A stretch of DNA of 64,000 nucleotides, from NCBI RefSeq assembly GCF_001936115.1, contig NZ_MPDM01000001.1, positions 146,123 through 210,122 on the forward strand, read 5' to 3'. This stretch comes from Boudabousia marimammalium (GTDB lineage: Bacteria; Actinomycetota; Actinomycetes; Actinomycetales; Actinomycetaceae). Position 1 is the stretch's first letter. Each line of letters starts with the position of its first letter. A program made the translations under genes and the position numbers. This document shows, one piece after another, positions 15,930 through 40,978 of this stretch. The notes below the pieces were generated by a model, which did not search any database, was not told the origin of the DNA, and was given only the letters and a program-made list of their open reading frames with translations.

Positions 15930-16254
15930 AACTCCACATTAACCAGCGCGCGGGACATTAACAATCAACACGTCTGACTGTCGAAACAATTGGAACGCGG
16001 GCATTCTCACACCGGCGTTACCCGGCGGTACTTTCACAAAGATGCTACCCTCTTGGTAGACGTTCTTTAAGGCGATCCTGTGAGGTCGCGAAGGTGTCGA
16101 ACAAGGTTAGGATACGGCCCTGCAACCACGAACAGTGGCTGCTGCGGTTTCAGGATTCTGCCGTGGATTGTGTGCTTTCGCCCTCATAGGCGGAAGCTAT
16201 TTTTGTTTCCCCGGAAACGGGCAGGCAAAGGTGGCGCAAATATTGGAGTAGCAC

Positions 16255-17202
16255 ATGACCCAGCCAACCAGCCCGGCCGCTCACCTTCTCAGCATTGCTG
16301 ATTTAAGTATCGAGGATGTGCTTTCCCTCCTTGATCGCGCCGCAGAGTTCAAACAGGGCGCCACCCCAAAGATCCCGTCAGGCCTGGTCGCTATCAATAT
16401 GTTCTTTGAGAACTCGACCCGCACGATGACTTCCTTCCAGATGGCTGAGCACCGTCTCGGCATGAAGGTACTGGATTTTAATCCTGACCATTCCAGCCTG
16501 ACCAAAGGGGAAAGCCTCTACGATTCGGTTCGCACAGTGGACGCGATTGGGGCGCATGTGGCGGTGATTCGCCATCATCAAAACGCCTACTATGATGAGC
16601 TGCTGGAAACCGGCCACCTGCGCCTCTCCATTGTTAATGGCGGTGACGGCTCCGGCCAGCATCCCAGCCAGTGCCTGCTGGACCTGCTGACGATTCGGGA
16701 AGAATTCGGTCACTTTGAGGGACTGAAGGTTGCTATCAGCGGCGATATTGCACACTCTCGGGTGGCTCGCTCCAACGCGGAAGTCCTCACCCGGCTGGGA
16801 GCCACCGTGTATTTCACCGGCCCGCATGAATGGATGGATGAAAGCATCACCGCCTGGGGCACGGTCGCTAGGCTTGATGAAATCTTGCCGCAACTAGATG
16901 TCTGCATGATGCTGCGCGTCCAGCATGAGCGTTTCGATGCCGGCCCCGACTTTAAAGCCAGCGACTACCTGGCCGCCTACGGTCTTACTGAGGAGCGGGC
17001 CGCCCGCATGCCCAAGCACGCCATCATTATGCATCCCGCCCCGGTGAACCGCGGCTGCGAACTAGCTGACGCCCTGATGGAAGCCCCCCAGTCACGAATT
17101 TTCCCGCAAATGACGAACGGGGTACTGGTCCGCATGGCCATGCTGGAGCGCGTCCTACTGAACAACTCTGCCGCTCAACAACAGAAAGCGCTTGCGAAAT
17201 GA
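16255..17202 (+). CDS. pyrB: Aspartate carbamoyltransferase catalytic subunit
   Basis: It has STRTR-like motifs and the ATCase fold. Its stop overlaps the pyrC start (ATGA). Confidence 0.9.
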   Translation: MTQPTSPAAHLLSIADLSIEDVLSLLDRAAEFKQGATPKIPSGLVAINMFFENSTRTMTSFQMAEHRLGMKVLDFNPDHSSLTKGESLYDSVRTVDAIGAHVAVIRHHQNAYYDELLETGHLRLSIVNGGDGSGQHPSQCLLDLLTIREEFGHFEGLKVAISGDIAHSRVARSNAEVLTRLGATVYFTGPHEWMDESITAWGTVARLDEILPQLDVCMMLRVQHERFDAGPDFKASDYLAAYGLTEERAARMPKHAIIMHPAPVNRGCELADALMEAPQSRIFPQMTNGVLVRMAMLERVLLNNSAAQQQKALAK

Positions 17203-18521
17203 ACCCCAGTCAGCCACTGCTCATCACCAACGCACGCACCCTCGGCGCCGGCACTTCCGACAGCCTAGAGGCCACCCAGATTCTGGTGGCAGACGGCAAG
17301 GTTAAAGCCATCGTCACGGGCCGCGCTGACGCCCCACAACAGACCGACGCCCGCGTGATCGACGTCCAAGGCGCCCTCGTCACCCCCGGCCTAGTGGATA
17401 TTCACGTCCACCTGCGCGAGCCGGGTGAAACCCATAAGGAAACCATTGCGACCGGCACGGCAGCGGCGGCGCGCGGCGGCTGGACCACGGTTTGCGCCAT
17501 GCCGAACACCGTCCCCGACCCGCACACCCCGCAGCTGCTAGCCCAGGTGCAAGAACTCATCCGGGAGCACGCCGTCATCAATGTTCACGCCTACTCCCCC
17601 ATCACGCGCGGTCTCACCTCAGATGACGTGGTTGATATTATTGCGCAGGCCGAGGCGGGGGCCGTCGGCTTCTCCAACGACGGCAAAGGCGTGCAAAAAG
17701 CCGGCACCATGTGGCGGGCCATGCAGCTGGCCGCGCAGGTGAACCGCCCCGTCGCCACCCATGCGGAAGATGAATCCATTAAAGGTGAAGGCGTCATTAA
17801 CGAGGGTGAAGCCTCCGCCCGCCTTGACCTGCCGGGCATTCACCGCCTCGCGGAAACCGTGCAGGTGGCACGCGACGCCCTAATTGCGGAAGCGACCGGC
17901 GCCCACTATCACCTCTGCCATGCTTCCACGGTGGAATCCATGCGGATTCTACGCCGCGCCCAAGCGGACGGCGTCAACATGAGCGCGGAAGCAACGCCGC
18001 ATCACCTGCTGCTGACGGATGCGGATATTCCCGCCGACGACGCCAACTGGAAGGTCAATCCGCCGCTGCGCTCACAGCTGGATGCCGCCGCCGTCCTAGA
18101 GGGCTTAAACGACGGCACGATTTCCGCTATCGCCACCGATAACGCCCCCCACACTGACCCGGAAAAGCACTGCTCTTTCCGTACCGGCGCTTTCGGCCTA
18201 GTCACCAATGAGCACAGTTTCGCACTGCTCTACACGCACCTGGTCCGCACCGGAAAACTCAGCCTGCGCCGCCTGGTGGAGCTGCTCACCACCGGCCCCG
18301 CCGACCTGTATCACCTGGATGCCGGCCGGCTGAGCGTGGGCGTCCCGGCAGATCTGGCGGCCTACGCCCTCGACTCGCAAAGCCTGATTGACCCGGCCGC
18401 TTTCGTCGGCATGGGCCATAACAATCCCTTCGTGAACACGCCCGTACAAGGTGACTGTGTCCTCACGCTCTGCGGCGGACGGGTCGTCAACTGGCAGCCC
18501 ACCCTCGGCCCCCAAAACTAG
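17199..18521 (+). CDS. pyrC: Dihydroorotase
   Basis: It has the amidohydrolase DIHVHLREPG motif. Confidence 0.9.
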   Translation: MNPSQPLLITNARTLGAGTSDSLEATQILVADGKVKAIVTGRADAPQQTDARVIDVQGALVTPGLVDIHVHLREPGETHKETIATGTAAAARGGWTTVCAMPNTVPDPHTPQLLAQVQELIREHAVINVHAYSPITRGLTSDDVVDIIAQAEAGAVGFSNDGKGVQKAGTMWRAMQLAAQVNRPVATHAEDESIKGEGVINEGEASARLDLPGIHRLAETVQVARDALIAEATGAHYHLCHASTVESMRILRRAQADGVNMSAEATPHHLLLTDADIPADDANWKVNPPLRSQLDAAAVLEGLNDGTISAIATDNAPHTDPEKHCSFRTGAFGLVTNEHSFALLYTHLVRTGKLSLRRLVELLTTGPADLYHLDAGRLSVGVPADLAAYALDSQSLIDPAAFVGMGHNNPFVNTPVQGDCVLTLCGGRVVNWQPTLGPQN

Positions 18522-18573
18522 CCAAATCCCCCAAATCTCAACTGAAATCAGCAAACCCAAATAAAGGATGAAA

Positions 18574-19661
18574 ATGAGTAGTCGCTTTCGCACCCTCCTG
18601 TTAGCGGATGGCTCCACGCATGTGGGCCGCGCCTTCGGGTCGGATACTGAAACTACCGCGGAGGTGGTTTTCACGACCGGCATGACCGGCTATCAGGAGA
18701 CGCTAACCGACCAGTCCTACAACGGGCAGATCGTGACTTTCACCTACCCGCTGATTGGCAACACCGGCATTAACCGCGACGACATGGAGACCCTGTTCCC
18801 CACCACGGCGGGCCTGATTTGCCGTGAGGTTCCCCGCCGGCCCTCCAACTGGCGCTCCGACCTGGGCCTGTCCGAGTTCATGGCGACACACGGCATTCCG
18901 GGGCTGGCTGAGATTGACACGCGCGCCCTGGTGCGCAGGCTTCGGGCCGAGGGCGTCATGAAGGGCACCTTCCTCAATGGCCAGCCGGGCGTTGATTTTG
19001 CGGTCGAAGTTGAGCTAGAACGCCTGCATGAGCGGGAACTGCCGCGCGATCAGGTGCAGCAGGTTTCCACCCAGAACTCTTACGCTAATCCGAATACGGG
19101 CCATAACGTGGTGCTTTTCGATTTCGGTTTGAAGCATTCGATTCTGCGTGAGCTGAGCGCCCGCGGCTGTGCGATTACGGTGGTGCCGCATGATATTAGC
19201 GCGGAGCGGGTGCGGGCTTTGCATCCGGACGGAATCATGCTGTCGAATGGTCCGGGCGACCCGAAAGATCACCTGGAAGTGCTGGATGTGATCCGGGATT
19301 TGCAAGAGGATTTCCCCATGTTTGGTATCTGCCTGGGTCATCAGCTGATGTGCCTGGCGAACGGCGCGGACACTTATAAGCTGCCTTTCGGACACCGCGG
19401 ATTTAACCATCCGGTGCGGGAGCTGGCCACCGGCCGGGTTGATTTCACCAGCCAAAACCACGGTTATGCCGTGGAGAAAGCCTCCCTGGCGGGAACCGAC
19501 CTGGAGGTTACGCACGTGCAGATTAATGACGACACGGTGGAGGGCGTGCGCCATCGCAGCCGCCCCGCTTTCAGCGTGCAGTTCCACCCCGACGCGGCGG
19601 CCGGCCCGCATGATGCCGTCCACATGTTCGACCAGTTCATTGACTTGATGGAGGCCAACTG

Positions 19662-19662
<1 letters not shown>
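18574..19662 (+). CDS. carA: Carbamoyl-phosphate synthase small (glutaminase) subunit
   Basis: It has a class-I glutamine amidotransferase domain with a GICLGHQ motif. An AAAGGA ribosome-binding site lies 6 nt upstream of the ATG at 18574. Confidence 0.9.
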
Positions 19663-22859
<3,197 letters not shown>

Positions 22860-22866
22860 TTGGTAA

Positions 22867-24676
<1,810 letters not shown>

Positions 24677-24677
<1 letters not shown>

Positions 24678-25387
24678 TGGATACGTCTCGACCGATTATT
24701 GCCCTGGATGTGCCGAGCGCGCAGGCTGCCCTAGATTTTGTTCGTCTTTTCGAGGGCGAGTCCCTGTTCGTGAAGGTCGGCATGGAGCTGTTTTATGCGG
24801 CCGGCCCGCAGGTGGTGACGCAGATGCGGGAGGCCGGGCATGACGTGTTCTGCGACCTGAAACTGCACGACATTCCCAACACTGTGCGCGGCGCGGCGCG
24901 GAGTTTGTCGCGTTTGGGCGCGAGCCTGCTGACTGTGCATGCGGCGGGCGGGCAGGCCATGATGGAGGCCGCCTTGGAGGGTTTGCGTGAGGGCGCTGGG
25001 GCCGAGGGTGAGCAGCCGTCGGTTGTCGCAATCACGCAGCTGACTTCCACTAGCCCGGAAGCTATGCGTCGCGAGCAGCTCATTGAGGTGCCTTTGCAAG
25101 AGTCTGTTTTGAACTATGCGCGGGTGGCGCAGGCCGCTGGTGTGGCGGGCGTGGTCTGCTCTGCTTGGGAGGCTGCCGCCATTAAGGACGCCACCAGTGA
25201 GGACTTTTTACGGATCACGCCGGGTATTCGTCCTGAGGGCGCCGATATTGGCGACCAGGCCCGCGTGGTGACCCCGTCGAAGGCCGCGCAGATGGCTTCT
25301 TCGGGAATCGTGGTGGGCCGTCCCATTGTGCAGGCCGCTGACCCGGTCGCCGCGTATCATGAGATTAAAGCCGCCTGGAACAGCTGA
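24677..25387 (+). CDS. pyrF: Orotidine 5'-phosphate decarboxylase
   Basis: It has the OMP decarboxylase fold and the conserved D-x-K-x-x-D region (FCDLKLHDIP). Confidence 0.85.
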
Positions 25388-25450
25388 TTTTGGCGGCTGA
25401 ACACCCCCTCGTCCTACCCAAACCCACCCTTGTTTTTTGAAAGGATCCCC

Positions 25451-26101
25451 ATGACTGTCTCCGACCCGAAACTTGCCGCCCAGGTGGCCGCCGCCCTGCT
25501 GGATTGCGAGGCCGTGTCTTTGCGCCCGACCGATCCGTTTACCTGGGCGTCGGGGCTGCGTTCCCCGATTTACTGCGATAACCGGGTGACCTTGTCGGTT
25601 CCGGCAACGCGCTCTTTGCTGGCCGAGGGTTTAGCGGCTTTGGTGCGGGCGCAGTTCCCGGAAGCCACCGTCGTGGCTGGTACCGCTACCGCCGGGATTG
25701 CGCACGCGGCGCTGGCGGCTGACCGTTTGGGTTTGCCGATGGCGTATGTGCGGGCTGCCGCGAAGACTCACGGCAAGGGCAATCAGATTGAGGGACGGAT
25801 TAGGCCGGGCGCGAAGGTCGTCATGGTGGAGGATCTGATTTCTACGGGTGGTTCCGTGTTGGAGGCAGCGAAGGCAGTGCAGGCGGCAGGCGCTACCGTG
25901 TTGGGTGTGATCGCGCTGTTCTCTTATGAGCTGCAGGCAGGTAAGGACGCTTTCGAGGCGGCCGGTTTGCCCCTGTTCACGCTGTCTAACTACCCGACTT
26001 TGGTTGAGGTGGCAATGACCGAGGGTAAGATTAGCGAGGCCGAGGAAGCCGCACTGTCTACTTGGTCAGCGGACCCGCAGGCTTGGTCTGACGCCCACTG
26101 A
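25451..26101 (+). CDS. pyrE: Orotate phosphoribosyltransferase
   Basis: It has the PRTase PRPP-binding motif VMVEDLISTGGS. The ATG is preceded by AAAGGA. Confidence 0.85.
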   Translation: MTVSDPKLAAQVAAALLDCEAVSLRPTDPFTWASGLRSPIYCDNRVTLSVPATRSLLAEGLAALVRAQFPEATVVAGTATAGIAHAALAADRLGLPMAYVRAAAKTHGKGNQIEGRIRPGAKVVMVEDLISTGGSVLEAAKAVQAAGATVLGVIALFSYELQAGKDAFEAAGLPLFTLSNYPTLVEVAMTEGKISEAEEAALSTWSADPQAWSDAH

Positions 26102-26168
26102 CTATTGGTGCAGGTGCAGCACATAATTCATCAACGACTGTTTAACTATACTGCTATTCTTGGTGAGT

Positions 26169-26975
26169 ATGAGCAGAAAGTTTCCTAGTATTGAGGTTGG
26201 GATTGGCGCTATCGGCACTAGCTTGGACAGCTCCTCCGCGACTCTTACGAATTTTCGTTCAGAAGCACGCCATCTGTTTTTCGACCTTAGTAACGAATGG
26301 TTGAATGAAGAAGTTGACCATCCTCCCTTGTGGCACACTTTTTATGAGGACGGAGAGCCGGAAGGCTTAGCTGATGCTGTGCTTGCTTTCGTGGAGATGA
26401 TGGTCGACTCTCAACATAATATTTCAGTCTCACTCCTATTCCAGGCTTTACAAAACTGTTTGGATTACCTTGGGGATAATCAAGTCGACGGCTATTTCCT
26501 TAGCGTGGGATCTTTCGTAAATCCGGTCGATGATTCTCTGCTTTGGTATTGGACCGACGGAGAACGTAGTCTTAAAAGAGCTAGGTTCTTTATTCCGGAT
26601 GTGCGGCTCGGCGCAGATTTAGCTTGCTTGAGCAGACGCCAGAGCAACAACACCCGAGTTGAAATCAGCCTACTTACCCCGCAAAAACCCGGCATTGAAG
26701 CTCAGCTAGCTGAGGTTTCAGAAATCTTTTTAGAAGCTATCACCCTAGAGCAACCAGCGCTAATAAACTTCGCAGAAGCGGATTCAACCACTGTTTCCAG
26801 TCCCGCTTCCTACATTGAGATACCCCAGGAGGTAGCTGAGCTGCACCTAGTCGGGGAGCTGCCTGGCCTGAACCCCATCTACGCTGGGGTGGCTGTGCGT
26901 AGCGTGCTTGAAGCCTGCTATCGAGCGGGCATCTCCATACCAATCCAACTGGCTGTCAAAAAGCGGCTGAGCTAG
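26169..26975 (+). CDS. Hypothetical protein (no recognisable domain), low GC, first gene of the accessory island
   Basis: It is a long ORF in a ~48% GC segment. The ATG at 26169 is in frame with the TTG at 26160. Confidence 0.4.
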   Translation: MSRKFPSIEVGIGAIGTSLDSSSATLTNFRSEARHLFFDLSNEWLNEEVDHPPLWHTFYEDGEPEGLADAVLAFVEMMVDSQHNISVSLLFQALQNCLDYLGDNQVDGYFLSVGSFVNPVDDSLLWYWTDGERSLKRARFFIPDVRLGADLACLSRRQSNNTRVEISLLTPQKPGIEAQLAEVSEIFLEAITLEQPALINFAEADSTTVSSPASYIEIPQEVAELHLVGELPGLNPIYAGVAVRSVLEACYRAGISIPIQLAVKKRLS

Positions 26976-27180
26976 GCACGCACCAGACGCGTCCGCTGAC
27001 ACCCACATTTATCAATGTTGTGTGACTAAAAGCCAGAAGTACCCGGTTGTGTGTGAACAAATCCCACACAACTTCGATACTGTGTGCGAAAAAACCAAAA
27101 ACAGCCCAAAATCAGCCCAAATTTGGCTTTTACCACACACAAATAGTACTCACAATCCTTTCCCGACTTTAGGGACACTT

Positions 27181-29733
27181 CTATCGCGGTCTGAGCGCCT
27201 CTACGATAGTGAGCTGACGCGCTAGCATCCAAGCTGGAACGCTCAGACCAGTACTAACTATGCCAAGAACGATAGCAAACACTGAGATGCTACCTGCTGA
27301 AGGCACAGAGAAGAGAACTGGAATAACATTGCTGTGCTTCAGTAATAGCACGGCGCTATGTCCACCCACCACTCCGATAGGTACTCCTACAATTACACCG
27401 AAGAACACTATAATGAGAGTTTCATACATAGACGTGCGGAATAATTGCCAAGTAGACATACCCATAGCTTTCGCGGTTGCCAATAAGGGAAATTGTCTCC
27501 GAGTGGCTACCAGCTGTAAGTACACCAAGCCACTAACGGCTACGAGGAAAGACACCCCAAGGATGGTAATAAGGAAAACAAAGAGTCCCTGAGTTTGTCT
27601 TGAAGTTTCGTCCACATAAGTCTGTTTCAATACTAGATTGTAATCGGAATGCGTTCGCGTGTATTGGATCAAGTCCTCTTCAATATCCTTGCCATCATTC
27701 GGAGTCACCATCAACACACTGGGTTCGATCTGCCTAAAAGTTCCTCCTCGTGCTACCTCTTTTGGAATAATCAGTTCCCCATGCAACAAGTGGCTATCGA
27801 CTATCGCACCTATCTTGACCGTCGTGCAATGCCCTTCATTGTCGGAGATAGAAATCCGGTCACCAATCCTAAATCCCCTATCAGAAGCGTAACTCTGATT
27901 CAAAATCGCAAAGTCACTGCTGCGCGAATTATCGGCCAATAGATTGTCTAAACTACCGTCAACTAGAGGCAAACTAGCGGCAATAGAAAACGACTCGAAA
28001 TCCAATAAATTCACGTTTACCGCTTGCGATTCTATGTTTTTGCTGGGAGCAGATTCACACAAGGGCGCAACGAAGAGCCCTGTAGAACCATCTACAGATG
28101 CTACATTTGGCAGATTTCTAATTTTTGTAATATCTTCATTAAAAGTCTCCGTATCAGCATAGGTCGTGAGCAAATACGGCGCTTTTAGCTCCTCCGTAAT
28201 AGTTTTCGAGATGCCCTTTTCGAGACTTGCTTGTACGAAAAGGCCGGAGATAACCACCCCCGAGGCTAACATGATTGCAACTGTGCCAAAAGATAGCCGT
28301 TTCCGATCGTTGAGCAAGGAATTAAGCGAAAGAGCTAGAGCTACTCTCTTCCTGCCGGTCAAACGTTGCACCTGTAGTAAAAGATATGAAACAAGGTATC
28401 CGGAGACCAGGATACCTGCTAGGTAAAGCAGGAAAGACAGAATAAGCTTAAGTCTTGCATCAGCAGAAAAGAGCAAAGCCAGCGCAACTGCTCCCAATGA
28501 AACAAAACCCACAATGTGCAAGTAGTTCAACTTCACATGGTTAACATCAGTTTCTTTTCGATTTTTGGTGCTGGTGTATCTTGCCGCCGCGACTGCCGCA
28601 GAAACCGCAAATATAATGATTGATGTTGCTAAGCCTACAACCGCCACTAGGATACTAAATCGGTAACGAATTGGGGGCAAACCTAGCTCAAAGAACAGCC
28701 GATTAATCGCAATAGAACTTGGAACGGACAACAGCACGCCAGTAAGCCCCGCAATTACCCCGGCCGACAAGAATCGTCTGAGAGTTAACCCAATAACTTG
28801 TTTCCTAGACATCCCTAGAATCTGCAGTTCTTTTAATCTATCTGATTCAATTGTGAGCAGATAGTTTATCGAGTTAGTGGATAGGTACACTGCAACCAAA
28901 GCTGAAAGAACTAAGAGTAGTGCCACTATTGTTAAAGAGTTGAGCTGCCGCTGGAAACCGTCTTTGATTTCATCTCTCAATTGAACCTGAGTCCGTAGTT
29001 CTAGACCTGGTAGCTCGTATATTGTTGTCTTGACTTGCTCAAGCGTCAAGCTCTCGGAGCCATCTGGAGCAAGGCCAATCCGGTTAATCTGCTGCTCGCT
29101 ACGCACAAGTTTATCTCGGTCAGCATCACTAAGGTACAGGTGATGTTCGGATTTAGGTGCTGAATCATTTGAAATTACTGCAACAACTCTGCCTTGGGCT
29201 GTTTTACTTCCACTTATAACTTGAATGGGGTAGCCGAGACTAAGATTCAAAGTCTCAAACAGGTACCGATCAACTACTATTTCTCCGGGGGAATTGGAAA
29301 ACTCTCCTTCGATTACAGAATCTAGAGAATCACTGTAGGCAGACCAACGATCAGCAGCATATTTGGCTTGAATACCTGACCTAAGTACATGGTCACCAAT
29401 CTTGAGGTCAACCAATATCGGCGCCTCTGGCACTACCTGCCATCCCGGTAGCTGTTTCTCTATAATGGTTAGGGTTTCGTGGTCAATCCCAACCCGTGCA
29501 GGAGCTTTCAGCGTCACAGCATTTTCGTTTACCGTAGAATCTCTTTCTCCCACTACATACAAATCGTACTGTAATTTATCCAGCTCGGTTTTTTCTACAG
29601 TCTTTCCAACCGAAACTAGGCTGGTCATGATGCTGACCCCAAGCATGACAGTAATAGCAACAATGGCCACAATGCCAACCAGTCGCTTCCGTGAATCGGC
29701 AAACAGTTTTCGTGTAACTCTCCAATACCTCAT
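27181..29733 (-). CDS. MacB/FtsX-type ABC transporter permease with duplicated FtsX domains (850 aa)
   Basis: It has two 4-TM FtsX modules, each with a large extracytoplasmic domain, and is low GC. Confidence 0.8.
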   Translation of the reverse strand: MRYWRVTRKLFADSRKRLVGIVAIVAITVMLGVSIMTSLVSVGKTVEKTELDKLQYDLYVVGERDSTVNENAVTLKAPARVGIDHETLTIIEKQLPGWQVVPEAPILVDLKIGDHVLRSGIQAKYAADRWSAYSDSLDSVIEGEFSNSPGEIVVDRYLFETLNLSLGYPIQVISGSKTAQGRVVAVISNDSAPKSEHHLYLSDADRDKLVRSEQQINRIGLAPDGSESLTLEQVKTTIYELPGLELRTQVQLRDEIKDGFQRQLNSLTIVALLLVLSALVAVYLSTNSINYLLTIESDRLKELQILGMSRKQVIGLTLRRFLSAGVIAGLTGVLLSVPSSIAINRLFFELGLPPIRYRFSILVAVVGLATSIIIFAVSAAVAAARYTSTKNRKETDVNHVKLNYLHIVGFVSLGAVALALLFSADARLKLILSFLLYLAGILVSGYLVSYLLLQVQRLTGRKRVALALSLNSLLNDRKRLSFGTVAIMLASGVVISGLFVQASLEKGISKTITEELKAPYLLTTYADTETFNEDITKIRNLPNVASVDGSTGLFVAPLCESAPSKNIESQAVNVNLLDFESFSIAASLPLVDGSLDNLLADNSRSSDFAILNQSYASDRGFRIGDRISISDNEGHCTTVKIGAIVDSHLLHGELIIPKEVARGGTFRQIEPSVLMVTPNDGKDIEEDLIQYTRTHSDYNLVLKQTYVDETSRQTQGLFVFLITILGVSFLVAVSGLVYLQLVATRRQFPLLATAKAMGMSTWQLFRTSMYETLIIVFFGVIVGVPIGVVGGHSAVLLLKHSNVIPVLFSVPSAGSISVFAIVLGIVSTGLSVPAWMLARQLTIVEALRPR

Positions 29734-29774
29734 GCATGATTCCTAACTTGTATCCTAAAAGCGATAGAACCAAC

Positions 29775-30488
29775 TCATAAAGACGAGTCAGCTAGTTCGG
29801 ATAAACTCGACTCGGCAAGAACACCGTCTTGCATTGTTACAACACGCGAGGCATATCCTGCTGCTACCGGATCGTGGGTTACCATGACCAAAGACTGTCC
29901 GAAATCAGTAACGGTTTCTCTAAATATTTCCAACAAATCTTTAGACGCCTTGGAATCTAGCGCTCCTGTAGGCTCATCTGCGAAAATTAACTTGGGTTTT
30001 GTGATTAATGCTCTAGCGCATGCTACACGTTGTTGTTGGCCTCCAGATAGTTCCTGAGGTTTTCTATGTAAGACTTGGTCGATGCCTAGCCGGCGAGCGA
30101 TTTCTTGGAAATAACTACCATCCACCTCACCCTGGGAAATAGCTAGTGGTAACAGAATGTTCTCTTCCGCCGTGAGTGTCGGAATCAGTTGGTAGTTTTG
30201 AAAAATAAATCCGAAAGTTCTCCGCCGCAGTTCTACGAGTTGCCTACTGTCTTTAGGATTAAAGCGTTTCCCTTGCACCAATATTTCGCCAGAGTCTGGA
30301 ATGTCGAGTCCGGCCAAGCAATTCAGAAGTGTCGACTTACCAGAACCTGAAGCTCCCATAATCGCCAAAAAATCGCCCCTAAAAATGGACAAGGAAACGT
30401 TTTTAAGTGCATGGACTTTAGCCAATCCGCTTCCGTAGGTCTTAGACACTTCAGTAGCTTCCATGATTAGACTTGCATTGAGACTCAT
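29775..30488 (-). CDS. ABC transporter ATP-binding protein (MacB/LolD-type)
   Basis: It has a Walker A motif GASGSGKST, an ABC signature LSGGQQQR and a Walker B motif FADEPT. Confidence 0.9.
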   Translation of the reverse strand: MSLNASLIMEATEVSKTYGSGLAKVHALKNVSLSIFRGDFLAIMGASGSGKSTLLNCLAGLDIPDSGEILVQGKRFNPKDSRQLVELRRRTFGFIFQNYQLIPTLTAEENILLPLAISQGEVDGSYFQEIARRLGIDQVLHRKPQELSGGQQQRVACARALITKPKLIFADEPTGALDSKASKDLLEIFRETVTDFGQSLVMVTHDPVAAGYASRVVTMQDGVLAESSLSELADSSL

Positions 30489-30799
30489 AATTGACCCCTT
30501 CGTAAATCATGTAAACACACTTAAAAATCACTATCAACAGATTCCAAGTTTGCCAAGTATTTCACAGTATATCGTTTCACAGCTGATTTTTTAGCTTTCC
30601 CTGCACGAATTGAAAGTAAATACCGGCTGGAGTAGCTATTATCTGGGTGAAACTACTCTTCCAAACACAAACTGTGCGGGAATCTTCCACACACAAACCG
30701 CACTCAATGGTTTTGTGCTGAAAAAGTACAATTGTCTTATGGCTACTGGCTGCTTTCCAAGCTGTCAGCATGGGATAACACTTAACTCTCACCCATTCG

Positions 30800-30860
30800 C
30801 GGACATAAAAATCGGGCGCTACCTGTCTGCAAAGATTGCCTTGCCAGATAGCGCCCGATT
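30800..30860 (-). terminator. Rho-independent terminator after the His-rich gene (12-bp perfect arms AATCGGGCGCTA, U-tract on minus strand)
   Basis: Read from the sequence. Confidence 0.5.
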
Positions 30861-30869
30861 CGTTTAGTC

Positions 30870-31169
30870 TCAGTGCTCGTCGTAATGATCGCCGTCAGGA
30901 TGATGCAAATGCCCATCATGCAGATAATCAGTATGATCCCCATGCTTCACGGCTGGGTGTCCGCAGTCCTTACCGTGATCATGGTCGACGTGAGCTTCAG
31001 CGATTACTTCCTCGGTAACCTCATGCTCGTCGTAATGATCACCGTCGGCATGGTGCAAATGCCCATCATGGAGGAAATCTGTGTGATCCTCACGCTCAAT
31101 CGCGGGGTGCCCACAATCCTTGCCGTGATCATGGTCGGGATGGGGTTCAGCAATTTTGTGATCGCTCAT
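30870..31169 (-). CDS. Histidine/aspartate-rich small protein with a tandem ~40-aa duplication (putative metal-binding)
   Basis: It carries two repeats of HxDHDHGKDCGHPA…DHTDxLHDGHLHHxDGDHYDEH. ATG start at 31169. Confidence 0.55.
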   Translation of the reverse strand: MSDHKIAEPHPDHDHGKDCGHPAIEREDHTDFLHDGHLHHADGDHYDEHEVTEEVIAEAHVDHDHGKDCGHPAVKHGDHTDYLHDGHLHHPDGDHYDEH

Positions 31170-31319
31170 CGGTTTGCTCCTCTAAGTCTTAGAACAGTAA
31201 ATGTTACTGTCTTTACAGCATACAAGATATCCTGCATCCAACCTAGACCCAGGCAAGGCGGCCTCTAAAACTGCGCTGCTCTTTGCGATTTCGGAAAAGA
31301 TCGGATTTTTGCCGGCGAC

Positions 31320-32681
31320 CTAGTTATCCGCGTCCACGCCCCCGTCCGCATCGTTGCTTTCGGTCAGGCCTTGGGCAATGCCTTGCCCCACCATCCTACC
31401 TTGCAACATGGCAGCCAAATCCAGGCCGGTAGCTGCCTTCATTGACTCAAATACGCCAGACATTGCGACCGGCATTTCCTGAGACAAATTTTCGCCGGCA
31501 GAGGCCTGGCCGCTGCCACCAACAATCGTAATCTTGCCAATCTTCGCGTAACCGTCAGCGAAAGCCATCATCAGTTCTGGCAAAATCTCCAAAGCTCTCT
31601 GCGCTAGGATGGCGTCCTGATTCTCCCGCAAGGCTTGCGCTTCAGCAAGGATAGCTTCCGCCTTAGCTTGACCAGCAAGTTTAACCACTTCCGCATCCGC
31701 CTCGGCCTCGATCTTCCTTGCTTCCGCCTCCCGCTGCCGGCGATACAGTTCGGCGTCAGCTACCTGGCGAACCTCAGCGTCCAAACTGGATCGCTTGTTC
31801 AAGGCCTGCTGCTTCAAAACTCGTTCAGTGGCAGCTTCCCGGGCCAGCCGCTCAGCCTGCTCCGCCTCCGCATTAGCTTTACCGGTAGTGGCATTAGCTT
31901 CCGCCTGATTGCGCTTAAACTCAGTGTTTTCGATCAGGTTCTGTTCTTCATTGGCGATACGCTGTTTAGTAATGGCACGTTCAGCGTCAGTCTTAGCGAT
32001 TTCAGCGGCCTGCCGTTTCGCCTCAGCCTCCGGCGTTCCCAAGGATTCAATGTAGCCGATGCTGTCACGAATTTCCTTAATGGAGAAAGAGTCAAGCACC
32101 AGACCCTGCTTTTCTAGGTCTGGACGAATTTCCGTGAAAATATGGTCAGAGAAAATCTGCCGAGACTCCATCAGCTCAGTAACTTTTTGTTTCGCGATGA
32201 CCCCTCGGAGAGCACCCTCCAACTGTTCCCGAATAAAGACCTCAATGACTTCATCCTGGCTGGCGAAACGCTCAGCCGCAAGACGAACCAGGTCAGGGGT
32301 GTTACCGATCTTCACCAGTGCCACAGCCTCAACATCAACCTCAATCTTGTCCAAAGACTGCGCCTGCGCATTAACAATCACCTGACGCGATCGCAAAGAA
32401 ATAATCTCATGCCGTTGCGTAATCGGATTAACCAGTGATTTCCCGTTAACGATTACGGTAACAGGACTCTCAGTGCCGTCCTCTAGCACTTGCCTCTTAC
32501 CTGAAATGACTAGTGCTTCGTCGGCCCGAGCCACTTTAATCCAAGCGCGCGATGCCAGCACAAAAATTGCTGTAACCACCGCCGCGATGATAAGAAAAAT
32601 AATCAAGGCAACTAGGAAGCCGCCGATTTTGATTGTGGTGACTGTATTGTCTATGACATCAAGTCCCTTGTAGGAAAACAT
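31320..32681 (-). CDS. Flotillin-like SPFH/band-7 protein (YqiK/FloT-like)
   Basis: It has an N-terminal TM segment, an SPFH domain and a long Ala/Glu/Lys-rich coiled coil. The probable ATG is at 32681 with a GGAAGGTGGGG ribosome-binding site. Confidence 0.75.
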   Translation of the reverse strand: MFSYKGLDVIDNTVTTIKIGGFLVALIIFLIIAAVVTAIFVLASRAWIKVARADEALVISGKRQVLEDGTESPVTVIVNGKSLVNPITQRHEIISLRSRQVIVNAQAQSLDKIEVDVEAVALVKIGNTPDLVRLAAERFASQDEVIEVFIREQLEGALRGVIAKQKVTELMESRQIFSDHIFTEIRPDLEKQGLVLDSFSIKEIRDSIGYIESLGTPEAEAKRQAAEIAKTDAERAITKQRIANEEQNLIENTEFKRNQAEANATTGKANAEAEQAERLAREAATERVLKQQALNKRSSLDAEVRQVADAELYRRQREAEARKIEAEADAEVVKLAGQAKAEAILAEAQALRENQDAILAQRALEILPELMMAFADGYAKIGKITIVGGSGQASAGENLSQEMPVAMSGVFESMKAATGLDLAAMLQGRMVGQGIAQGLTESNDADGGVDADN

Positions 32682-32819
32682 TTCCCCACCTTCCGCTAGT
32701 GTAATAATGTTGCCATTATATACGTCCGACACTAGCTGAAAAGCCCCCAAGATCAACTTCACCCCCGAAAGCAACTAGGTCTTTCGGGGGTGAACTTCTG
32801 GGGGTAATAACCTAAGCGT

Positions 32820-39303: not shown

Positions 39304-39387
39304 GCGCGAGTGGCGGAATAGGCAGACGCGCACGGTTCAGGTCCGTGTGCCCGAAAGGGCGTGGGGGTTCAACTCCCCCCTCGCGCA
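39304..39387 (+). tRNA. tRNA-Leu (anticodon CAG), long variable arm
   Basis: The cloverleaf was folded by hand. It has a 7-bp acceptor GCGCGAG/CTCGCGC, U8, anticodon stem-loop CACGG-TTCAGGT-CCGTG, T-arm GGGGG-TTCAACT-CCCCC and discriminator A. It is close to E. coli tRNA-Leu(CAG). Confidence 0.8.
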
Positions 39388-39396
39388 CGTGAAAAG

Positions 39397-39438
39397 AATC
39401 GCGGTACTACCGAAGTAGTACCGCGATTCTTATTTTTT
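39397..39438 (+). terminator. Rho-independent terminator after tRNA-Leu (14-bp stem, tetraloop CGAA, tail CTTATTTTTT)
   Basis: Read from the sequence. Confidence 0.6.
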
Positions 39439-39498
39439 GCGCGATTCTTATCTTTGCTCAGGGACTAGCCATCAGCCATTGATGACTACTATGAAGCC

Positions 39499-39798
39499 TC
39501 AGTCGTTGCGATTGTTTTCTTCGCGAACATCAGGGGTAATACCGTACACGCCGTAAATGTAACCGGGCTCAGGAGCATTCCACTGACGACGGAACTGGAA
39601 ACCACCATAGAAAGCCATAGCGAAACCGATTACTGAAACCGGGTATCCGATGTATGCCATGTCGAAACCTGAAAAGAGTACTCCCAGCAGGAAGACTACG
39701 ATTCCAGCAATAAAGATTGCGTAGATTTTCTTATCGGTACGCTTCAACATCTCACCGAGGGAGACATTAGGATCAGCTGTTTGCCCACCCTTTTCCAT
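39499..39798 (-). CDS. Hypothetical small 2-TM membrane protein
   Basis: A 99-aa ORF lying in a lower-GC segment immediately 3' of tRNA-Leu. Confidence 0.4.
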   Translation of the reverse strand: MEKGGQTADPNVSLGEMLKRTDKKIYAIFIAGIVVFLLGVLFSGFDMAYIGYPVSVIGFAMAFYGGFQFRRQWNAPEPGYIYGVYGITPDVREENNRND

Positions 39799-39952
39799 TG
39801 TCGTTTCCTTTCATATATGACAAGAGATGTTCATTTGAACTCTCTATAGTCAGCTTATCGCACGCTTTATGCAAAAATTAAGGAAATCGTGACTAAAAAG
39901 GGCAAATTTTCCCAAAGCAGAATTTGAGATAAAAGGGGGATTCTTCCCTGTT

Positions 39953-40888: not shown

Positions 40889-40978
40889 AATCTATTCTCT
40901 CTTTACGTCAGTTTTCACGGGGTCTCCCCCACCGCTGCCAGCCCCCGAACCAGGCTGTGGTTCAGCTCGGTCTCAATC

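What the first reader, a model, noticed from the sequence alone, without database searches (positions are those of the whole stretch)
26100..31170. Low-GC accessory island: hypothetical protein, MacB/FtsX-type ABC exporter and duplicated His-rich protein inserted between pyrE and a flotillin gene
GC drops markedly over about 4.5 kb. The island encodes a 268-aa protein with no recognisable domain (plus strand). Convergently on the minus strand, an ABC ATPase is followed by an 850-aa permease with two FtsX modules and large extracytoplasmic loops. That permease type is used by peptide/lipoprotein/antimicrobial exporters and immunity systems. The intergenic DNA of the island carries recurring CACACAAA / GTTGTGTG motifs (27040-27160, 30650-30700) that could be sites for an island-specific regulator. 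The substrate and the role of the partner hypothetical protein are unknown.
Basis: partly seen in the sequence, partly recalled or inferred. Interest (0 to 1): 0.6.

Follow-up and report, generated by a model that had tools for sequence, protein, structure and literature searches.

The report
Foreign ABC exporter islet after pyrE
A roughly 4.7-kb stretch of foreign-looking, low-GC DNA at the end of the pyrimidine operon of Boudabousia marimammalium carries an uncharacterised MacB/FtsX-type ABC pump and an unrelated near-orphan gene; it is an ordinary kind of accessory islet, and the neighbouring histidine-rich gene is a separate, probably zinc-related unit.

Summary
GC falls from about 0.60-0.64 to 0.44-0.47 right after the pyrE stop codon. 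Third-position GC of the ABC genes (0.40-0.43) is the lowest of all long ORFs in the window (others 0.54-0.75). All named genes and the CACACAA/TTGTGTG motifs are present.

1. **ABC operon.** It encodes a MacB/LolD/BceA-type ATPase and an 850-aa permease. The permease is an internally duplicated module with 10 predicted TM helices and two extracytoplasmic domains. This is the topology of E. coli YbbP and M. tuberculosis Rv0987. It meets no equivalog threshold (Lol, FtsE, MacB, YbbA, ADOP, lactococcin-972).
2. **268-aa protein.** It is acidic and predicted cytoplasmic, with only two relatives among 1.84 billion representative proteins. Its full-length homolog lies in another actinobacterium with no ABC transporter nearby, so it is not a conserved partner.
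3. **His-rich protein.** It belongs to a widespread family (641 hits, no Pfam or PDB match). Two of seven loci hold zinc-homeostasis genes, and a third has a near-consensus Zur box. In the window it has its own palindrome and terminator.

The motifs are arms of hairpins that bracket the ABC operon, more likely terminators than regulator sites. The substrate is unknown, and I could not compare gene order with sister species.

The parts
25430..26101 (+). pyrE, the last gene of the pyrB-pyrC-carA-carB-pyrK-pyrD-pyrF-pyrE operon. It is the native left flank (GC3 0.71).
   Evidence: NCBIfam pyrE TIGR00336 scores 139.5 bits against a cut-off of 106.8. The operon genes were identified.
26169..26975 (+). 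Near-orphan 268-aa acidic protein, predicted cytoplasmic, function unknown. It lies on the same strand as pyrE, 68 nt downstream.
   Evidence: It is 100% identical to P0001, a hypothetical protein of Boudabousia marimammalium. It has no Pfam, NCBIfam, PADLOC or PDB hit. An exhaustive HMMER search found only P0126 (40% identity, E 1.6e-48) and the fragment P0127. Its pI is 4.5 and it has no TM or signal-like segment. GC3 is 0.51.
26976..27180 (.). Convergent intergenic region. It carries four CACACAA/TTGTGTG copies that form nested hairpins, probably bidirectional terminators.
   Evidence: Motif positions are 27018, 27047, 27065 and 27136. RNA folding gives z = -2.39 on the + strand and -3.15 on the - strand. 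Terminator-like hits on the - strand lie at 27086-27065 and 27046-27033.
27047..27070 (+). Hairpin motif copy TTGTGTGTG-N6-TCCCACACA, downstream of the permease gene.
   Evidence: (I2: 24 nt, 79% complementary to 30673-30696).
27181..29733 (-). 850-aa permease of the MacB/FtsX (type VII ABC) superfamily. It is an internally duplicated module of TM1, extracytoplasmic domain and TM2-4, with two linker helices, giving 10 predicted TM helices. The extracytoplasmic domains span about residues 45-262 and 505-713.
   Evidence: Pfam finds FtsX (3.9e-14, two stretches) and MacB_PCD (27.7 bits, cut-off 27). The hydropathy profile shows 10 TM candidates. hhalign of the N half against the C half gives probability 99.9%, E 5.9e-31, over 360 columns. 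A profile against the PDB matches 5xu1_M at 2e-23, MacB at 8e-23, YtrF, LolF, LolE, YbbP at 3e-12 and BceB at 6e-8. Homologs align from residue 1, which favours the 850-aa start over the 829-aa annotation.
29775..30488 (-). ABC ATPase of the MacB/LolD/BceA type, first gene of the two-gene operon. Walker A, the signature motif, Walker B and the H-loop are all intact.
   Evidence: Pfam ABC_tran at 1.1e-36. The best PDB matches are BceA at 6e-60, PsdA and MacB. All NCBIfam equivalogs fall below cut-off: LolD 206.9 against 307.75, FtsE 183.6 against 264.85, YbbA 177.4 against 336, and the lactococcin-972 ABC model 193.2 against 254.85. The motifs were read from the translation.
30673..30696 (-). 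Second copy of the hairpin motif (TTGTGTGTGGAAGATTCCCGCACA), followed by GTTTGTGTTT. It lies about 185 nt upstream of the ATPase start. It is terminator-like and may shield the ABC operon from upstream transcription.
   Evidence: (I2, and direct repeat D13 at 30657-30698), and (terminator-like, - strand, 30693-30673).
30803..30860 (-). Intrinsic terminator of the His-rich gene: a 16-bp stem, 94% complementary, followed by TTTTAT.
   Evidence: (I7) and the sequence read.
30870..31169 (-). 99-aa His/Asp-rich protein with 24 His and 2 Cys, built from two repeats of about 40 residues. It belongs to a widespread unannotated family and is probably a cytoplasmic zinc- or metal-binding protein. It is a separate transcription unit.
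   Evidence: There are 641 homologs, none with a Pfam domain and all named 'hypothetical'. Invariant His, Cys and Gly columns are shown. It has no PDB or Pfam hit. Its relatives lie between a cation-efflux gene and a ZIP gene, next to RND-efflux genes, and with FUR, cobW, L33, L28 and DUF1826 genes. The 70%-identical homolog has a Zur-box-like site 29 nt upstream. The RBS AGAGGAG was read.
31194..31210 (.). Perfect 7-3-7 palindrome ACAGTAA-CAT-TTACTGT, 24 nt upstream of the His-rich start codon. It is a candidate operator, and it is not the actinobacterial Zur consensus.
   Evidence: Searches show it is the only exact match in the window. One search finds no Zur-consensus match with 3 or fewer mismatches in 31170-31320.
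31320..32774 (-). SPFH/flotillin gene, the right flank (GC3 0.56).
   Evidence: Pfam Band_7 at 1.9e-18 and Flot at 4.3e-06.

Best explanation
The low-GC segment, from about 26102 to about 30800, is a small mosaic of horizontally acquired DNA at the 3' end of the pyrimidine operon of Boudabousia marimammalium. It holds two unrelated transcription units.

**Unit 1: the ABC operon.** This is a two-gene operon for a type VII (MacB/FtsX-superfamily) ABC machine.
- Two copies of the ATPase would dock on one 850-aa permease.
- The permease is a fused pseudo-dimer with 10 TM helices. Porter/Sabre-type extracytoplasmic domains sit between TM1-2 and TM7-8, as in E. coli YbbP and M. tuberculosis Rv0987.
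- By analogy with solved relatives, ATP binding zips the stalk helices together and moves the two outer domains (mechanotransmission). A hydrophobic or amphipathic compound would then be pulled out of, or kept off, the outer leaflet of the membrane rather than carried across it.
- The most likely benefit is resistance to an envelope-active peptide or lipid-like compound. That step is inferred, not shown.

**Unit 2: the 268-aa gene.** It encodes an acidic cytoplasmic protein from a three-member family, and it travels independently of the transporter.

**Other features.** The CACACAA/TTGTGTG motifs are arms of hairpins at both ends of the ABC operon and probably act as terminators or insulators. 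The His-rich gene next door is a separate unit, probably zinc-related.
For: **Composition.** GC3 is 0.40-0.43 for the ABC genes against 0.54-0.75 for every other long ORF. That range includes other membrane proteins, with GC3 0.66-0.69.

**Lack of homologs.**
- The permease has nothing above 22% identity in the word-indexed search and no tblastn match on plasmids.
- The 268-aa protein has only 2 relatives among 1.84 billion representatives.

**Transporter family and architecture.**
- Pfam finds FtsX twice plus MacB_PCD.
- The profile matches MacB, Spr0695, YtrF, LolF, LolE, YbbP and BceB.
- Hydropathy gives 10 TM candidates.
- The two halves are homologous over their full length, extracytoplasmic domains included.
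- The YbbP topology and the mechanotransmission mechanism are taken from PMC12646458.
- The ATPase motifs are intact and its best PDB hits are BceA, PsdA and MacB.

**Independence of the 268-aa gene.**
- It is convergent to the operon.
- Its homolog P0126 lies in a different low-GC islet, next to MFS and DUF2087 genes, with no ABC genes within 10 kb.

**Hairpins.**, with the local enrichment shown.

**Separate His-rich unit.** Its terminator and palindrome are.

**A close analogue.** M. tuberculosis Rv0986-0988 is a 5.6-kb island of 53% GC in a 65.6% GC genome. It carries an ATPase and a duplicated permease with two extracellular domains (PMC3982062 and PMC7761784).
Against: - No sister-species genome could be compared, so 'insertion' rests on composition and absence of homologs only.
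- There is no integrase, tRNA or flanking direct repeat.
- The permease search scored only the 8000 candidates sharing the most words, and no exhaustive search was run on the permease, so moderately close relatives could have been missed.
- FtsX-type permeases diverge very fast. Two permeases whose ATPases are about 50% identical reach only BLASTP E = 0.014. Lack of close homologs is therefore weak evidence of rarity.
- The AlphaFold models were unusable (pLDDT 34 and 43). The 10-TM topology rests on hydropathy and profile alignment alone.
- The first extracytoplasmic domain has no direct Pfam hit.
- Nothing bears on the substrate.
- The terminator role of the AT-rich hairpins is untested. The leader region as a whole is not unusually structured (z = -0.07).
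Confidence: 0.7

Rival explanations
1. The pair is a BceAB-type detoxification module. It would sense a cell-wall-active peptide such as bacitracin or a lantibiotic and free its lipid target, signalling through a dedicated two-component system.
For: - The ATPase's best solved relatives are BceA (6e-60) and PsdA (3.5e-52).
- BceB also has 10 TM helices and is matched by the permease profile at 6e-8.
Against: - By established knowledge, BceB-type permeases are about 650 aa with one large outer domain, between TM7 and TM8. This permease is 850 aa with two homologous outer domains.
- No histidine kinase or response regulator lies in the island or among the flanking genes examined (pyr operon, flotillin, nrdE, nrdI, serine dehydratase).
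- MacB-type permeases score far better than BceB.
Confidence: 0.12
2. The 268-aa protein is the functional partner of the transporter, in the way TesA partners YbbAP or Rv0988/AttH partners Rv0986-7. The whole island would then be a single functional cassette.
For: - The genes are adjacent inside the same low-GC patch.
- Type VII ABC systems usually work with an extracytoplasmic partner protein (PMC12646458).
Against: - The protein has no signal peptide or TM segment and is acidic.
- It is transcribed convergently, not within the operon.
- Its GC3 (0.51) differs from that of the ABC genes (0.40-0.43).
- Its only full-length homolog has no ABC transporter within 10 kb.
- It has no similarity to any hydrolase, lipocalin or other family.
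Confidence: 0.06
3. The operon is a bacteriocin export and immunity system serving a peptide encoded next to it.
For: - The ATPase resembles the lactococcin-972-group and darobactin export ATPases (193 and 197 bits).
- A 71-codon Cys-containing ORF (30577-30792, - strand) lies upstream of the ATPase.
Against: - Both NCBIfam scores are below cut-off.
- The small ORFs match no family. The Cys codons of the 71-codon ORF come from the TGTGTG hairpin itself.
- No modification enzyme, C39 peptidase domain or Lcn972-like precursor is present.
Confidence: 0.04
4. The CACACAA/GTTGTGTG repeats are operator sites for a transcription factor that controls the island genes.
For: - The motif is strongly enriched locally: 6 copies against 0.67 expected.
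- It occurs in both non-coding regions.
- Upstream of the operon it forms a 16-nt direct repeat with 26-nt spacing (D13).
Against: - No regulator gene lies in the island.
- Four of the six copies sit between two convergent stop codons, where operators are not expected.
- The copies pair with each other into hairpins with significant folding energy and T-rich tails.
- The motif is absent around the homolog of the 268-aa gene.
Confidence: 0.12
5. The genes are native and only look foreign because of their amino-acid composition or expression level.
For: - There are no mobility genes, tRNA or direct repeats at the borders.
- The flotillin gene next door also has a somewhat low GC3 of 0.56.
Against: - The soluble ATPase has the lowest GC3 of all (0.40).
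- Other membrane-protein genes in the window have GC3 0.66-0.69.
- Synonymous choices shift: CTG is 19 of 120 Leu codons in the permease against 81 of 158 in native genes, and AAG is 11 of 33 Lys codons against 55 of 65.
- No ortholog was found in a database that includes NCBI nr.
Confidence: 0.05

Closest known systems
E. coli YbbAP(-TesA), a type VII ABC transporter (PDB 9GE6-9GE8; PMC12646458)
   Same: - A separate MacB/LolD-type ATPase is paired with a single permease of about 800-850 aa.
- The permease has 10 TM helices, with large outer domains between TM1-2 and TM7-8 and two linker helices (TM5-6) joining duplicated halves.
- A mechanotransmission mechanism is expected.
   Different: - Sequence similarity is marginal. 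phmmer finds no YbbP match at E up to 1, and the profile reaches only 3e-12 over FtsX segments.
- The ATPase misses the YbbA equivalog cut-off, 177 against 336 bits.
- No TesA-like SGNH hydrolase is present.
- The host is Gram-positive and has no periplasm.
M. tuberculosis Rv0986-Rv0988 and Agrobacterium AttEFGH (PMC3982062, PMC7761784)
   Same: - It is a small low-GC island in a high-GC actinobacterium.
- It carries an FtsE/LolD-like ATPase and a duplicated permease with two extracellular domains and 10-12 predicted TM helices.
- It is regarded as horizontally acquired.
   Different: - No AttH/Rv0988-like third gene is present here.
- No direct sequence comparison was possible with these tools.
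- No virulence or adhesion phenotype is known for this locus.
BceAB-RS and PsdAB peptide-antibiotic resistance modules of Bacillus (PDB 7TCG, 9UGG)
   Same: - They hold the closest solved relatives of the ATPase.
- Their permease has 10 TM helices and belongs to the FtsX superfamily.
- They are a plausible functional analogy: protection against envelope-active peptides.
   Different: - BceB has one outer domain, not two, and is about 200 residues shorter.
- No cognate two-component system lies nearby.
- The permease profile matches BceB only weakly, at 6e-8.
MacB, Spr0694-0695, YtrEF, LolCDE and LolDF homo- or heterodimeric type VII systems
   Same: - Each half of the permease aligns end to end with a whole MacB-type subunit of TM1, periplasmic core domain and TM2-4 (MacB residues 259-650 against profile positions 5-401).
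- The ATPase subfamily is the same.
   Different: - Here the two subunits are fused into one chain with two extra helices.
- All Lol, FtsE and MacB equivalog scores are below cut-off.
- No MacA-like adaptor or LolA-like chaperone is present.
Zur-regulon accessory proteins and His-rich metal-storage proteins such as H. pylori Hpn (for the His-rich gene only; the Hpn comparison is from my own knowledge)
   Same: - It is a small, cytoplasmic, extremely His-rich protein.
- Its relatives lie beside Zur/FUR, COG0523 (cobW), L33 and L28 genes, and beside cation-efflux, ZIP and RND-efflux transporter genes.
- A near-consensus actinobacterial Zur box precedes the closest homolog.
   Different: - The family has a fixed, duplicated motif with invariant positions, HxHGxxCGH...HxDYLxDGHLHH, rather than low-complexity His runs.
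- It has no Pfam, NCBIfam or PDB relative.
- The copy in the window lacks a Zur-consensus site.

Membership tests
Type VII ABC transporters (MacB/FtsX superfamily) | FtsX-type four-helix permease module | tested here: met
   Pfam PF02687 at 3.9e-14 (53.2 bits, cut-off 25.5), with two stretches. The profile matches MacB, LolE, LolC, FtsX, YtrF and BceB chains.
Type VII ABC transporters (MacB/FtsX superfamily) | Large extracytoplasmic core domain (Porter/Sabre) between TM1 and TM2 of the module | tested here: met
   MacB_PCD covers residues 486-686 at 27.7 bits against a cut-off of 27, which is borderline. The N-terminal outer domain has no direct Pfam hit. It does align with the C-terminal domain in hhalign (probability 99.9%) and with the MacB core domain at profile level.
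Type VII ABC transporters (MacB/FtsX superfamily) | Cognate ATPase of the MacB/LolD/FtsE subfamily, encoded adjacent to the permease | tested here: met
   The ATPase gene ends 41 nt upstream of the permease start. Its best matches are LolD, MacB, DevA, FtsE and BceA.
YbbP-like fused type VII permeases | 10 TM helices, outer domains between TM1-2 and TM7-8, and duplicated halves linked by TM5-6 | tested here: met
   The hydropathy profile gives 10 candidates at the expected positions. The internal duplication is shown. The reference topology comes from PMC12646458. No confident 3-D model was obtained (pLDDT 43).
YbbP-like fused type VII permeases | Orthology to YbbA and YbbP | tested here: not met
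   The YbbA equivalog scores 177.4 against a cut-off of 336. phmmer of the permease against the PDB finds no YbbP match at E up to 1. The profile reaches only 3.4e-12 on short FtsX stretches.
YbbP-like fused type VII permeases | TesA-like (SGNH) hydrolase partner | tested here: not met
   No island protein matches any hydrolase family. The rest of the genome was not available.
BceAB-type peptide-antibiotic resistance transporters | Permease of about 650 aa with a single large outer domain between TM7 and TM8 | tested here: not met
   The permease is 850 aa with two outer domains of about 210 aa each. The BceB topology is from established knowledge.
BceAB-type peptide-antibiotic resistance transporters | Adjacent BceRS-like two-component system | tested here: not met
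   The island holds only the four genes listed. The flanks examined are pyr genes, flotillin, nrdE, nrdI and serine dehydratase.
LolCDE, FtsEX and MacB orthologs | Score above the NCBIfam equivalog cut-off | tested here: not met
   LolD 206.9 against 307.75; FtsE 183.6 against 264.85; MacB 202 against 966; LolC 15.4 against 473.
ADOP duplicated orphan permeases (TIGR03434) | Score above the family cut-off | tested here: not met
   25.3 bits against 622.3. In addition, this permease has an adjacent ATPase.
Lactococcin-972-type bacteriocin ABC systems | TIGR03608 ATPase above cut-off, plus an Lcn972-like precursor gene | tested here: not met
   193.2 bits against 254.85. No small ORF matches any family.
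Rv0986-0988 / AttEFGH operons | AttH/Rv0988-like third gene, and sequence orthology | not tested
   The reference sequences could not be obtained with these tools, and no AttH-like domain was seen in the island proteins. The resemblance is architectural and compositional only.
Classical genomic island | Integrase or transposase, tRNA target, flanking direct repeats | tested here: not met
   The nearest tRNA (tRNA-Leu at 39304) lies outside the segment. No significant flanking direct repeats were found. The segment is almost fully occupied by the three genes.
Horizontally acquired DNA (compositional criterion) | Codon third-position composition outside the host range | tested here: met
   GC3 is 0.40-0.51 against 0.54-0.75 for all other long ORFs except one.
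Horizontally acquired DNA (phyletic criterion) | Absence from sister species at the same site | not testable with these tools
   The single genome scan returned only distant pyrE loci, at most 71% identical. The flotillin scan of metagenomes gave at most 29% identity over full-length matches. The window's own proteins are not indexed for context look-up.
Actinobacterial Zur regulon (His-rich gene) | Zur box (TGAAAATGATTTTCA-like) in the promoter | tested here: not met
   No match with 3 or fewer mismatches lies in 31170-31320. A different perfect palindrome is present there. The 70%-identical homolog in L082 does carry TGAAATTGATTTTCA, a 14 of 15 match.

The most novel reading that the evidence does not exclude
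The duplicated His-rich protein (30870-31169) may represent a widespread and so far undescribed family of small cytoplasmic zinc-binding proteins, acting as buffers or chaperones.

- The family has a fixed two-fold motif, HxHGxxCGH...HxDYLxDGHLHH.
- It has at least 641 members across Acidobacteriota, Verrucomicrobiota, Planctomycetota, Proteobacteria and Actinomycetota.
- In some lineages it sits inside Zur- or zinc-transport gene clusters.
- Its position next to the ABC islet would be coincidental.

A less likely novel reading, at about 5%, is that the near-orphan 268-aa protein is a new cytoplasmic accessory of the fused type VII transporter.
Probability: 0.45. Interest if true: 0.5.

Novelty: new member of a known kind. 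Interest (0 to 1): 0.3.

Why it matters
**The islet.** It adds one more example of a fused 10-TM type VII ABC system arriving on a tiny low-GC patch in a high-GC actinobacterium. This parallels the M. tuberculosis Rv0986-8 island. It also shows how fast these permeases diverge. The only solved example of this subclass, YbbAP-TesA, dates from 2025 and comes from a Gram-negative. A Gram-positive member with no obvious partner could therefore help define what the class does in organisms with a single membrane.

**Annotation.** The analysis separates three units that a reader of the raw sequence would lump together. It also flags a probable start-codon error in the public annotation.

**By-products.** The two more interesting items are a three-member orphan family that sits in low-GC islets in two genomes, and a large unannotated His-rich family with zinc-related gene neighbours in some lineages.

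**Overall.** None of this changes current understanding. It is a modest, ordinary accessory locus.

Tried and rejected
- **Gene order in relatives.**
It returned only Propionibacteriaceae and Firmicutes loci at no more than 71% identity.
  - The flotillin scan of metagenomes gave at most 29% identity over full-length matches.
  - Exact-protein look-ups of the window's permease failed.
  - The empty-site test could therefore not be done.
- **Structure.**
  - AlphaFold2 of the 268-aa protein as a single sequence gave pLDDT 34.
  - AlphaFold2 of the permease with a 4-sequence alignment gave pLDDT 43.
  - Both models were unusable, so no fold search was run.
- **Mobile-element origin.**
  - tblastn found no plasmid match for the permease or the His-rich protein, and no plasmid or phage match for the 268-aa protein.
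  - The 268-aa family was absent from the viral and metagenome scans.
  - Nothing relevant came from PADLOC beyond generic ATPase hits.
- **Donor lineage.** The best plasmid-borne relatives of the ATPase are 49-54% identical and split between Actinomycetota and Bacillota, which is uninformative.
- **RNA elements.** Rfam gave no hit at E up to 1 across 25900-31400.
- **Bacteriocin-like small ORFs.** None matches any family.
- **Terminal inverted repeats.** I considered whether the two hairpin copies are the ends of a mobile element carrying the ABC operon (I2: 24 nt, 79% complementary). I rejected this as unsupported. Each copy is itself a palindrome, no transposase or target duplication is present, and similar-length chance pairs occur inside coding sequence (I1).
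- **Zur control in the window.** There is no consensus box upstream of the His-rich gene. A weak 3-mismatch match lies at 30522-30536, upstream of the ATPase, and is within chance expectation.
- **Other palindrome matches.** The hits near 45.1 kb lie in or next to the coding sequence of a thioredoxin-like lipoprotein and look random.
- **Literature.** A search for the His-rich motif strings found nothing.

Full report
**Source and setting**

The 268-aa protein and the permease are 100% identical to proteins of Boudabousia marimammalium, family Actinomycetaceae. Upstream of the finding lies a complete pyrimidine operon on the + strand. It runs pyrB, pyrC, carA, carB, pyrK, pyrD, pyrF, pyrE and spans 16252-26101. 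Downstream, on the - strand, lie a flotillin gene, nrdE and nrdI.

**Observation check**

- GC drops from 0.60-0.64 to 0.44-0.48 immediately after the pyrE stop codon at 26101. It recovers around 30.8-31.3 kb.
- GC3 is 0.70-0.73 for the pyr genes and nrdE. It is 0.51 for the 268-aa ORF, 0.43 for the permease and 0.40 for the ATPase.
- Among all ORFs of at least 200 codons in the window, every other gene lies between 0.54 and 0.75, apart from one rhomboid gene at 0.48.
- Synonymous choices shift as well. Leu CTG is 19 of 120 in the permease against 81 of 158 in native genes. Lys AAG is 11 of 33 against 55 of 65.
- The effect is not a membrane-protein artefact. The soluble ATPase is the most extreme gene, and other membrane proteins in the window are compositionally normal.

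**The ABC pair**

*ATPase (29775-30488, - strand).* It has intact Walker A, signature, Walker B and H-loop motifs. Its best solved relatives are BceA (6e-60), PsdA, MacB, MJ0796 and LolD. In NCBIfam it resembles LolD, MacB, DarD, the lactococcin-972 ABC model, DevA, FtsE and YbbA. It misses every curated cut-off.

*Permease (27181-29733, - strand).*
- Pfam finds two FtsX stretches and a borderline MacB_PCD hit.
- Hydropathy gives ten TM candidates: 18-36, 266-284, 325-343, 359-377, 405-423, 430-448, 482-500, 719-737, 773-791 and 816-834. Hydrophilic domains of about 210 residues follow TM1 and TM7.
- A profile-profile comparison of the N half with the C half aligns 360 columns at probability 99.9% and E = 6e-31, including the outer domains. 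The protein is therefore a fused pseudo-dimer of two MacB-type modules joined by two extra helices.
- A 5-sequence profile matches whole MacB-type subunits with each half: Spr0695 at 2e-23, MacB at 8e-23, then YtrF, LolF and LolE. YbbP (3e-12) and BceB (6e-8) match more weakly.
- This is exactly the topology reported for E. coli YbbP: 10 TM helices, periplasmic domains between TM1-2 and TM7-8, and TM5-6 as a linker. YbbP works by mechanotransmission and extracts hydrophobic compounds from the membrane for its partner TesA (PMC12646458).
- M. tuberculosis Rv0987 is described with the same features: 10-12 TM helices and two extracellular domains (PMC7761784).
- The homologs align from residue 1 of the 850-aa ORF. 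The public 829-aa annotation therefore probably starts too late and clips the first helix.

*How isolated is the permease?* The word-indexed search of 5.8 billion proteins found nothing above 22% identity. Plasmids gave no tblastn match at all. Two cautions apply.
- Only the 8000 candidates sharing the most words were scored.
- These permeases diverge very fast. The C. tetani plasmid system has an ATPase about 50% identical to this one and an 817-aa permease with two FtsX stretches. That permease reaches only BLASTP E = 0.014 against this one.

'No close homolog' is thus real but not remarkable for this class.

**The 268-aa protein**

- It has no Pfam, NCBIfam, PADLOC or PDB match, even at E up to 10.
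- An exhaustive HMMER pass over 1.84 billion representatives found two relatives. P0126 is 296 aa, 40% identical, E = 1.6e-48. P0127 is a 156-aa fragment.
- The family shares a strongly conserved N-terminal half with the motif LSNEWLNE...LWHTFYED.
- The protein is acidic (pI 4.5) and has no signal-like or TM segment.
- P0126 lies in another actinobacterium (GCA_053585205.1). There it also sits in a low-GC islet, at 0.40-0.47 against 0.51-0.57. Its neighbours are MFS and DUF2087 genes between housekeeping genes, with no ABC transporter within 10 kb.
- No relatives were found in the viral, metagenome, plasmid or phage collections.

I conclude it is an independently mobile cargo gene of unknown function, not a conserved partner of the pump. 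In the window it starts 68 nt after pyrE on the same strand, with no terminator between them. It may therefore be read through from the pyr operon; this is an inference.

**The His-rich gene**

The 99-aa product has 24 His, 28 Asp plus Glu, and 2 Cys. It consists of two repeats of about 40 residues. The DNA repeats are 80% identical (D1).

*Family.* It is not an orphan. There are 641 homologs, typically 110-120 aa, in many phyla. All are 'hypothetical' and none has a Pfam domain. An alignment shows 28 invariant columns, mostly His, Cys and Gly. There is no PDB relative, and no paper contains the motif strings.

*Gene neighbourhood in seven loci.*
- In L083 the gene lies between a cation-efflux gene and a ZIP gene, next to genes for an OEP/RND-type efflux system.
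- In L088 it is followed by a FUR-family gene and surrounded by cobW (COG0523), L33, L28 and DUF1826 genes. From my own knowledge this is a typical Zur-regulon cluster.
- In L082 the closest homolog (70% identity) lies on a contig with sortase and pilin genes. It is preceded at 29 nt by TGAAATTGATTTTCA. This matches 14 of 15 positions of the Streptomyces Zur consensus TGAAAATGATTTTCA (PMC2823685).
- The other four loci show no metal genes.

*In the window.* The gene has a good RBS and a perfect palindrome, ACAGTAA-CAT-TTACTGT, 24 nt upstream of the start codon. That palindrome is unique in the window and does not match the Zur consensus. A strong terminator lies at 30803-30860. Its low GC3 (0.51) is largely explained by its His and Asp codons. 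The native genes themselves use only about 50-56% C-ending codons for these two residues.

The gene is thus a separate transcription unit. It is probably a zinc- or metal-binding protein, and it cannot be assigned to the island.

**The motifs**

CACACAA/TTGTGTG is enriched about nine-fold in the island, and four copies lie within 125 bp.
- The four copies in 26976-27180 pair into nested hairpins, GTTGTGTG...CACACAAC and outer arms (I12 and I18). Folding energies lie well below those of shuffled sequence, at z = -2.4 and -3.2. The site is the meeting point of two convergent genes.
- A 24-nt version, TTGTGTGTG-N6-TCCCNCACA, recurs on the opposite strand at 30673-30696. It is followed by a T-rich tail, lies about 185 nt upstream of the ATPase start, and sits downstream of the His-rich terminator.
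- No regulator is encoded in the island. Rfam finds nothing. The motif is absent around the homolog of the 268-aa gene.

The simplest reading is that these are terminator or insulator hairpins bracketing the ABC operon. They were possibly carried in with it. A regulatory-site role is not excluded.

**Is it an island?**

Composition and the absence of orthologs argue for foreign origin. Classical island hallmarks are missing. The decisive comparison with sister species could not be made. The different GC3 values, and the separate occurrence of the 268-aa family elsewhere, suggest at least two acquisition events or a mosaic donor.

The best analogue in the literature is the 5.6-kb island Rv0986-0988 of M. 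tuberculosis. It has 53% GC against a genome average of 65.6%. It carries the same kind of transporter and is held to be horizontally acquired (PMC3982062).

**Mechanism and verdict**

*Shown.*
- Foreign composition.
- Family and architecture of the transporter.
- Independence of the three units.
- The hairpin nature of the motifs.

*Inferred.*
- The complex is two ATPase copies on one permease and works by mechanotransmission.
- It acts at the outer leaflet on an amphipathic or lipidic compound, most plausibly as a resistance determinant.
- The hairpins terminate transcription.
- The His-rich protein binds zinc.

The locus is a new and highly diverged member of a known kind of system, set in an ordinary accessory islet. 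The interesting leftovers are the three-member orphan family and the large unannotated His-rich family.

Noticed in passing
window 30870-31169 (-); loci L082, L083, L088: The His-rich protein belongs to a family of at least 641 small proteins with a fixed duplicated motif, HxHGxxCGH...HxDYLxDGHLHH, and no Pfam, NCBIfam or PDB annotation. In two loci the gene sits among zinc-homeostasis genes: cation-efflux, ZIP and RND-efflux genes in one, and FUR, cobW, L33, L28 and DUF1826 in the other. The closest homolog has a near-consensus actinobacterial Zur box.
   Followed up: partly
window 30874-31155; P0006 against P0007: The two repeats inside the His-rich gene are 80% identical in DNA. By my own manual count, they are about 82% identical within the protein, against 74-77% to the corresponding repeats of the 70%-identical ortholog. 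This hints at gene conversion or an independent re-duplication in the Actinomycetaceae subgroup. That subgroup also lacks the Cys-containing linker found in the rest of the family.
   Followed up: partly
window 31194-31210: A perfect 7-3-7 palindrome, ACAGTAACATTTACTGT, lies 24 nt upstream of the His-rich start codon. It is unique in the window and does not match the actinobacterial Zur consensus. The regulator is unknown.
   Followed up: partly
window 29670-29733 (-): The public annotation of the permease (829 aa) probably starts 21 codons too late. Homologs align from the first residue of the 850-aa ORF, and the shorter start would truncate the conserved N-terminal segment and TM1.
   Followed up: partly
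L087 8001-11000 (GCA_053585205.1): The only full-length homolog of the 268-aa protein also lies in a low-GC islet, at 0.40-0.47 against 0.51-0.57. It sits beside MFS and DUF2087 genes, between sulfate-permease and ackA-pta genes. The tiny family therefore seems to travel on AT-rich patches in actinobacteria.
   Followed up: partly
window 58109-58771 (+): A rhomboid-family gene has GC3 0.48. It is the only other long ORF in the window with clearly atypical composition.
   Followed up: no
window 39304-40900: A low-GC patch (0.46 at 39500-39999) lies immediately downstream of tRNA-Leu(CAG). It contains a 99-codon ORF (39499-39798, -) and a 311-aa ORF (39953-40888, -) with no Pfam hit. It may be another small acquired segment at a tRNA.
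   Followed up: no
window 30522-30536 (-): A weak Zur-box-like sequence, TGATAGTGATTTTTA, has 3 mismatches and lies 34-48 nt upstream of the ABC ATPase start. It is within chance expectation, at 1.4 such matches per window.
   Followed up: partly
window 31320-32774 (-): The flotillin gene has an intermediate GC3 of 0.56. No candidate NfeD-like gene was seen among the ORFs next to it. Whether it is native is unclear.
   Followed up: no
L081 194-7585: The most similar permease in the databases (P0003, 22% identity) lies on a 68%-GC metagenomic contig. That contig carries two tandem pairs of an ATPase and a permease of about 850 aa (MacB_PCD-FtsX-MacB_PCD-FtsX), separated by a 174-aa gene with no Pfam hit. 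Fused type VII systems can therefore occur as tandem paralogs.
   Followed up: no
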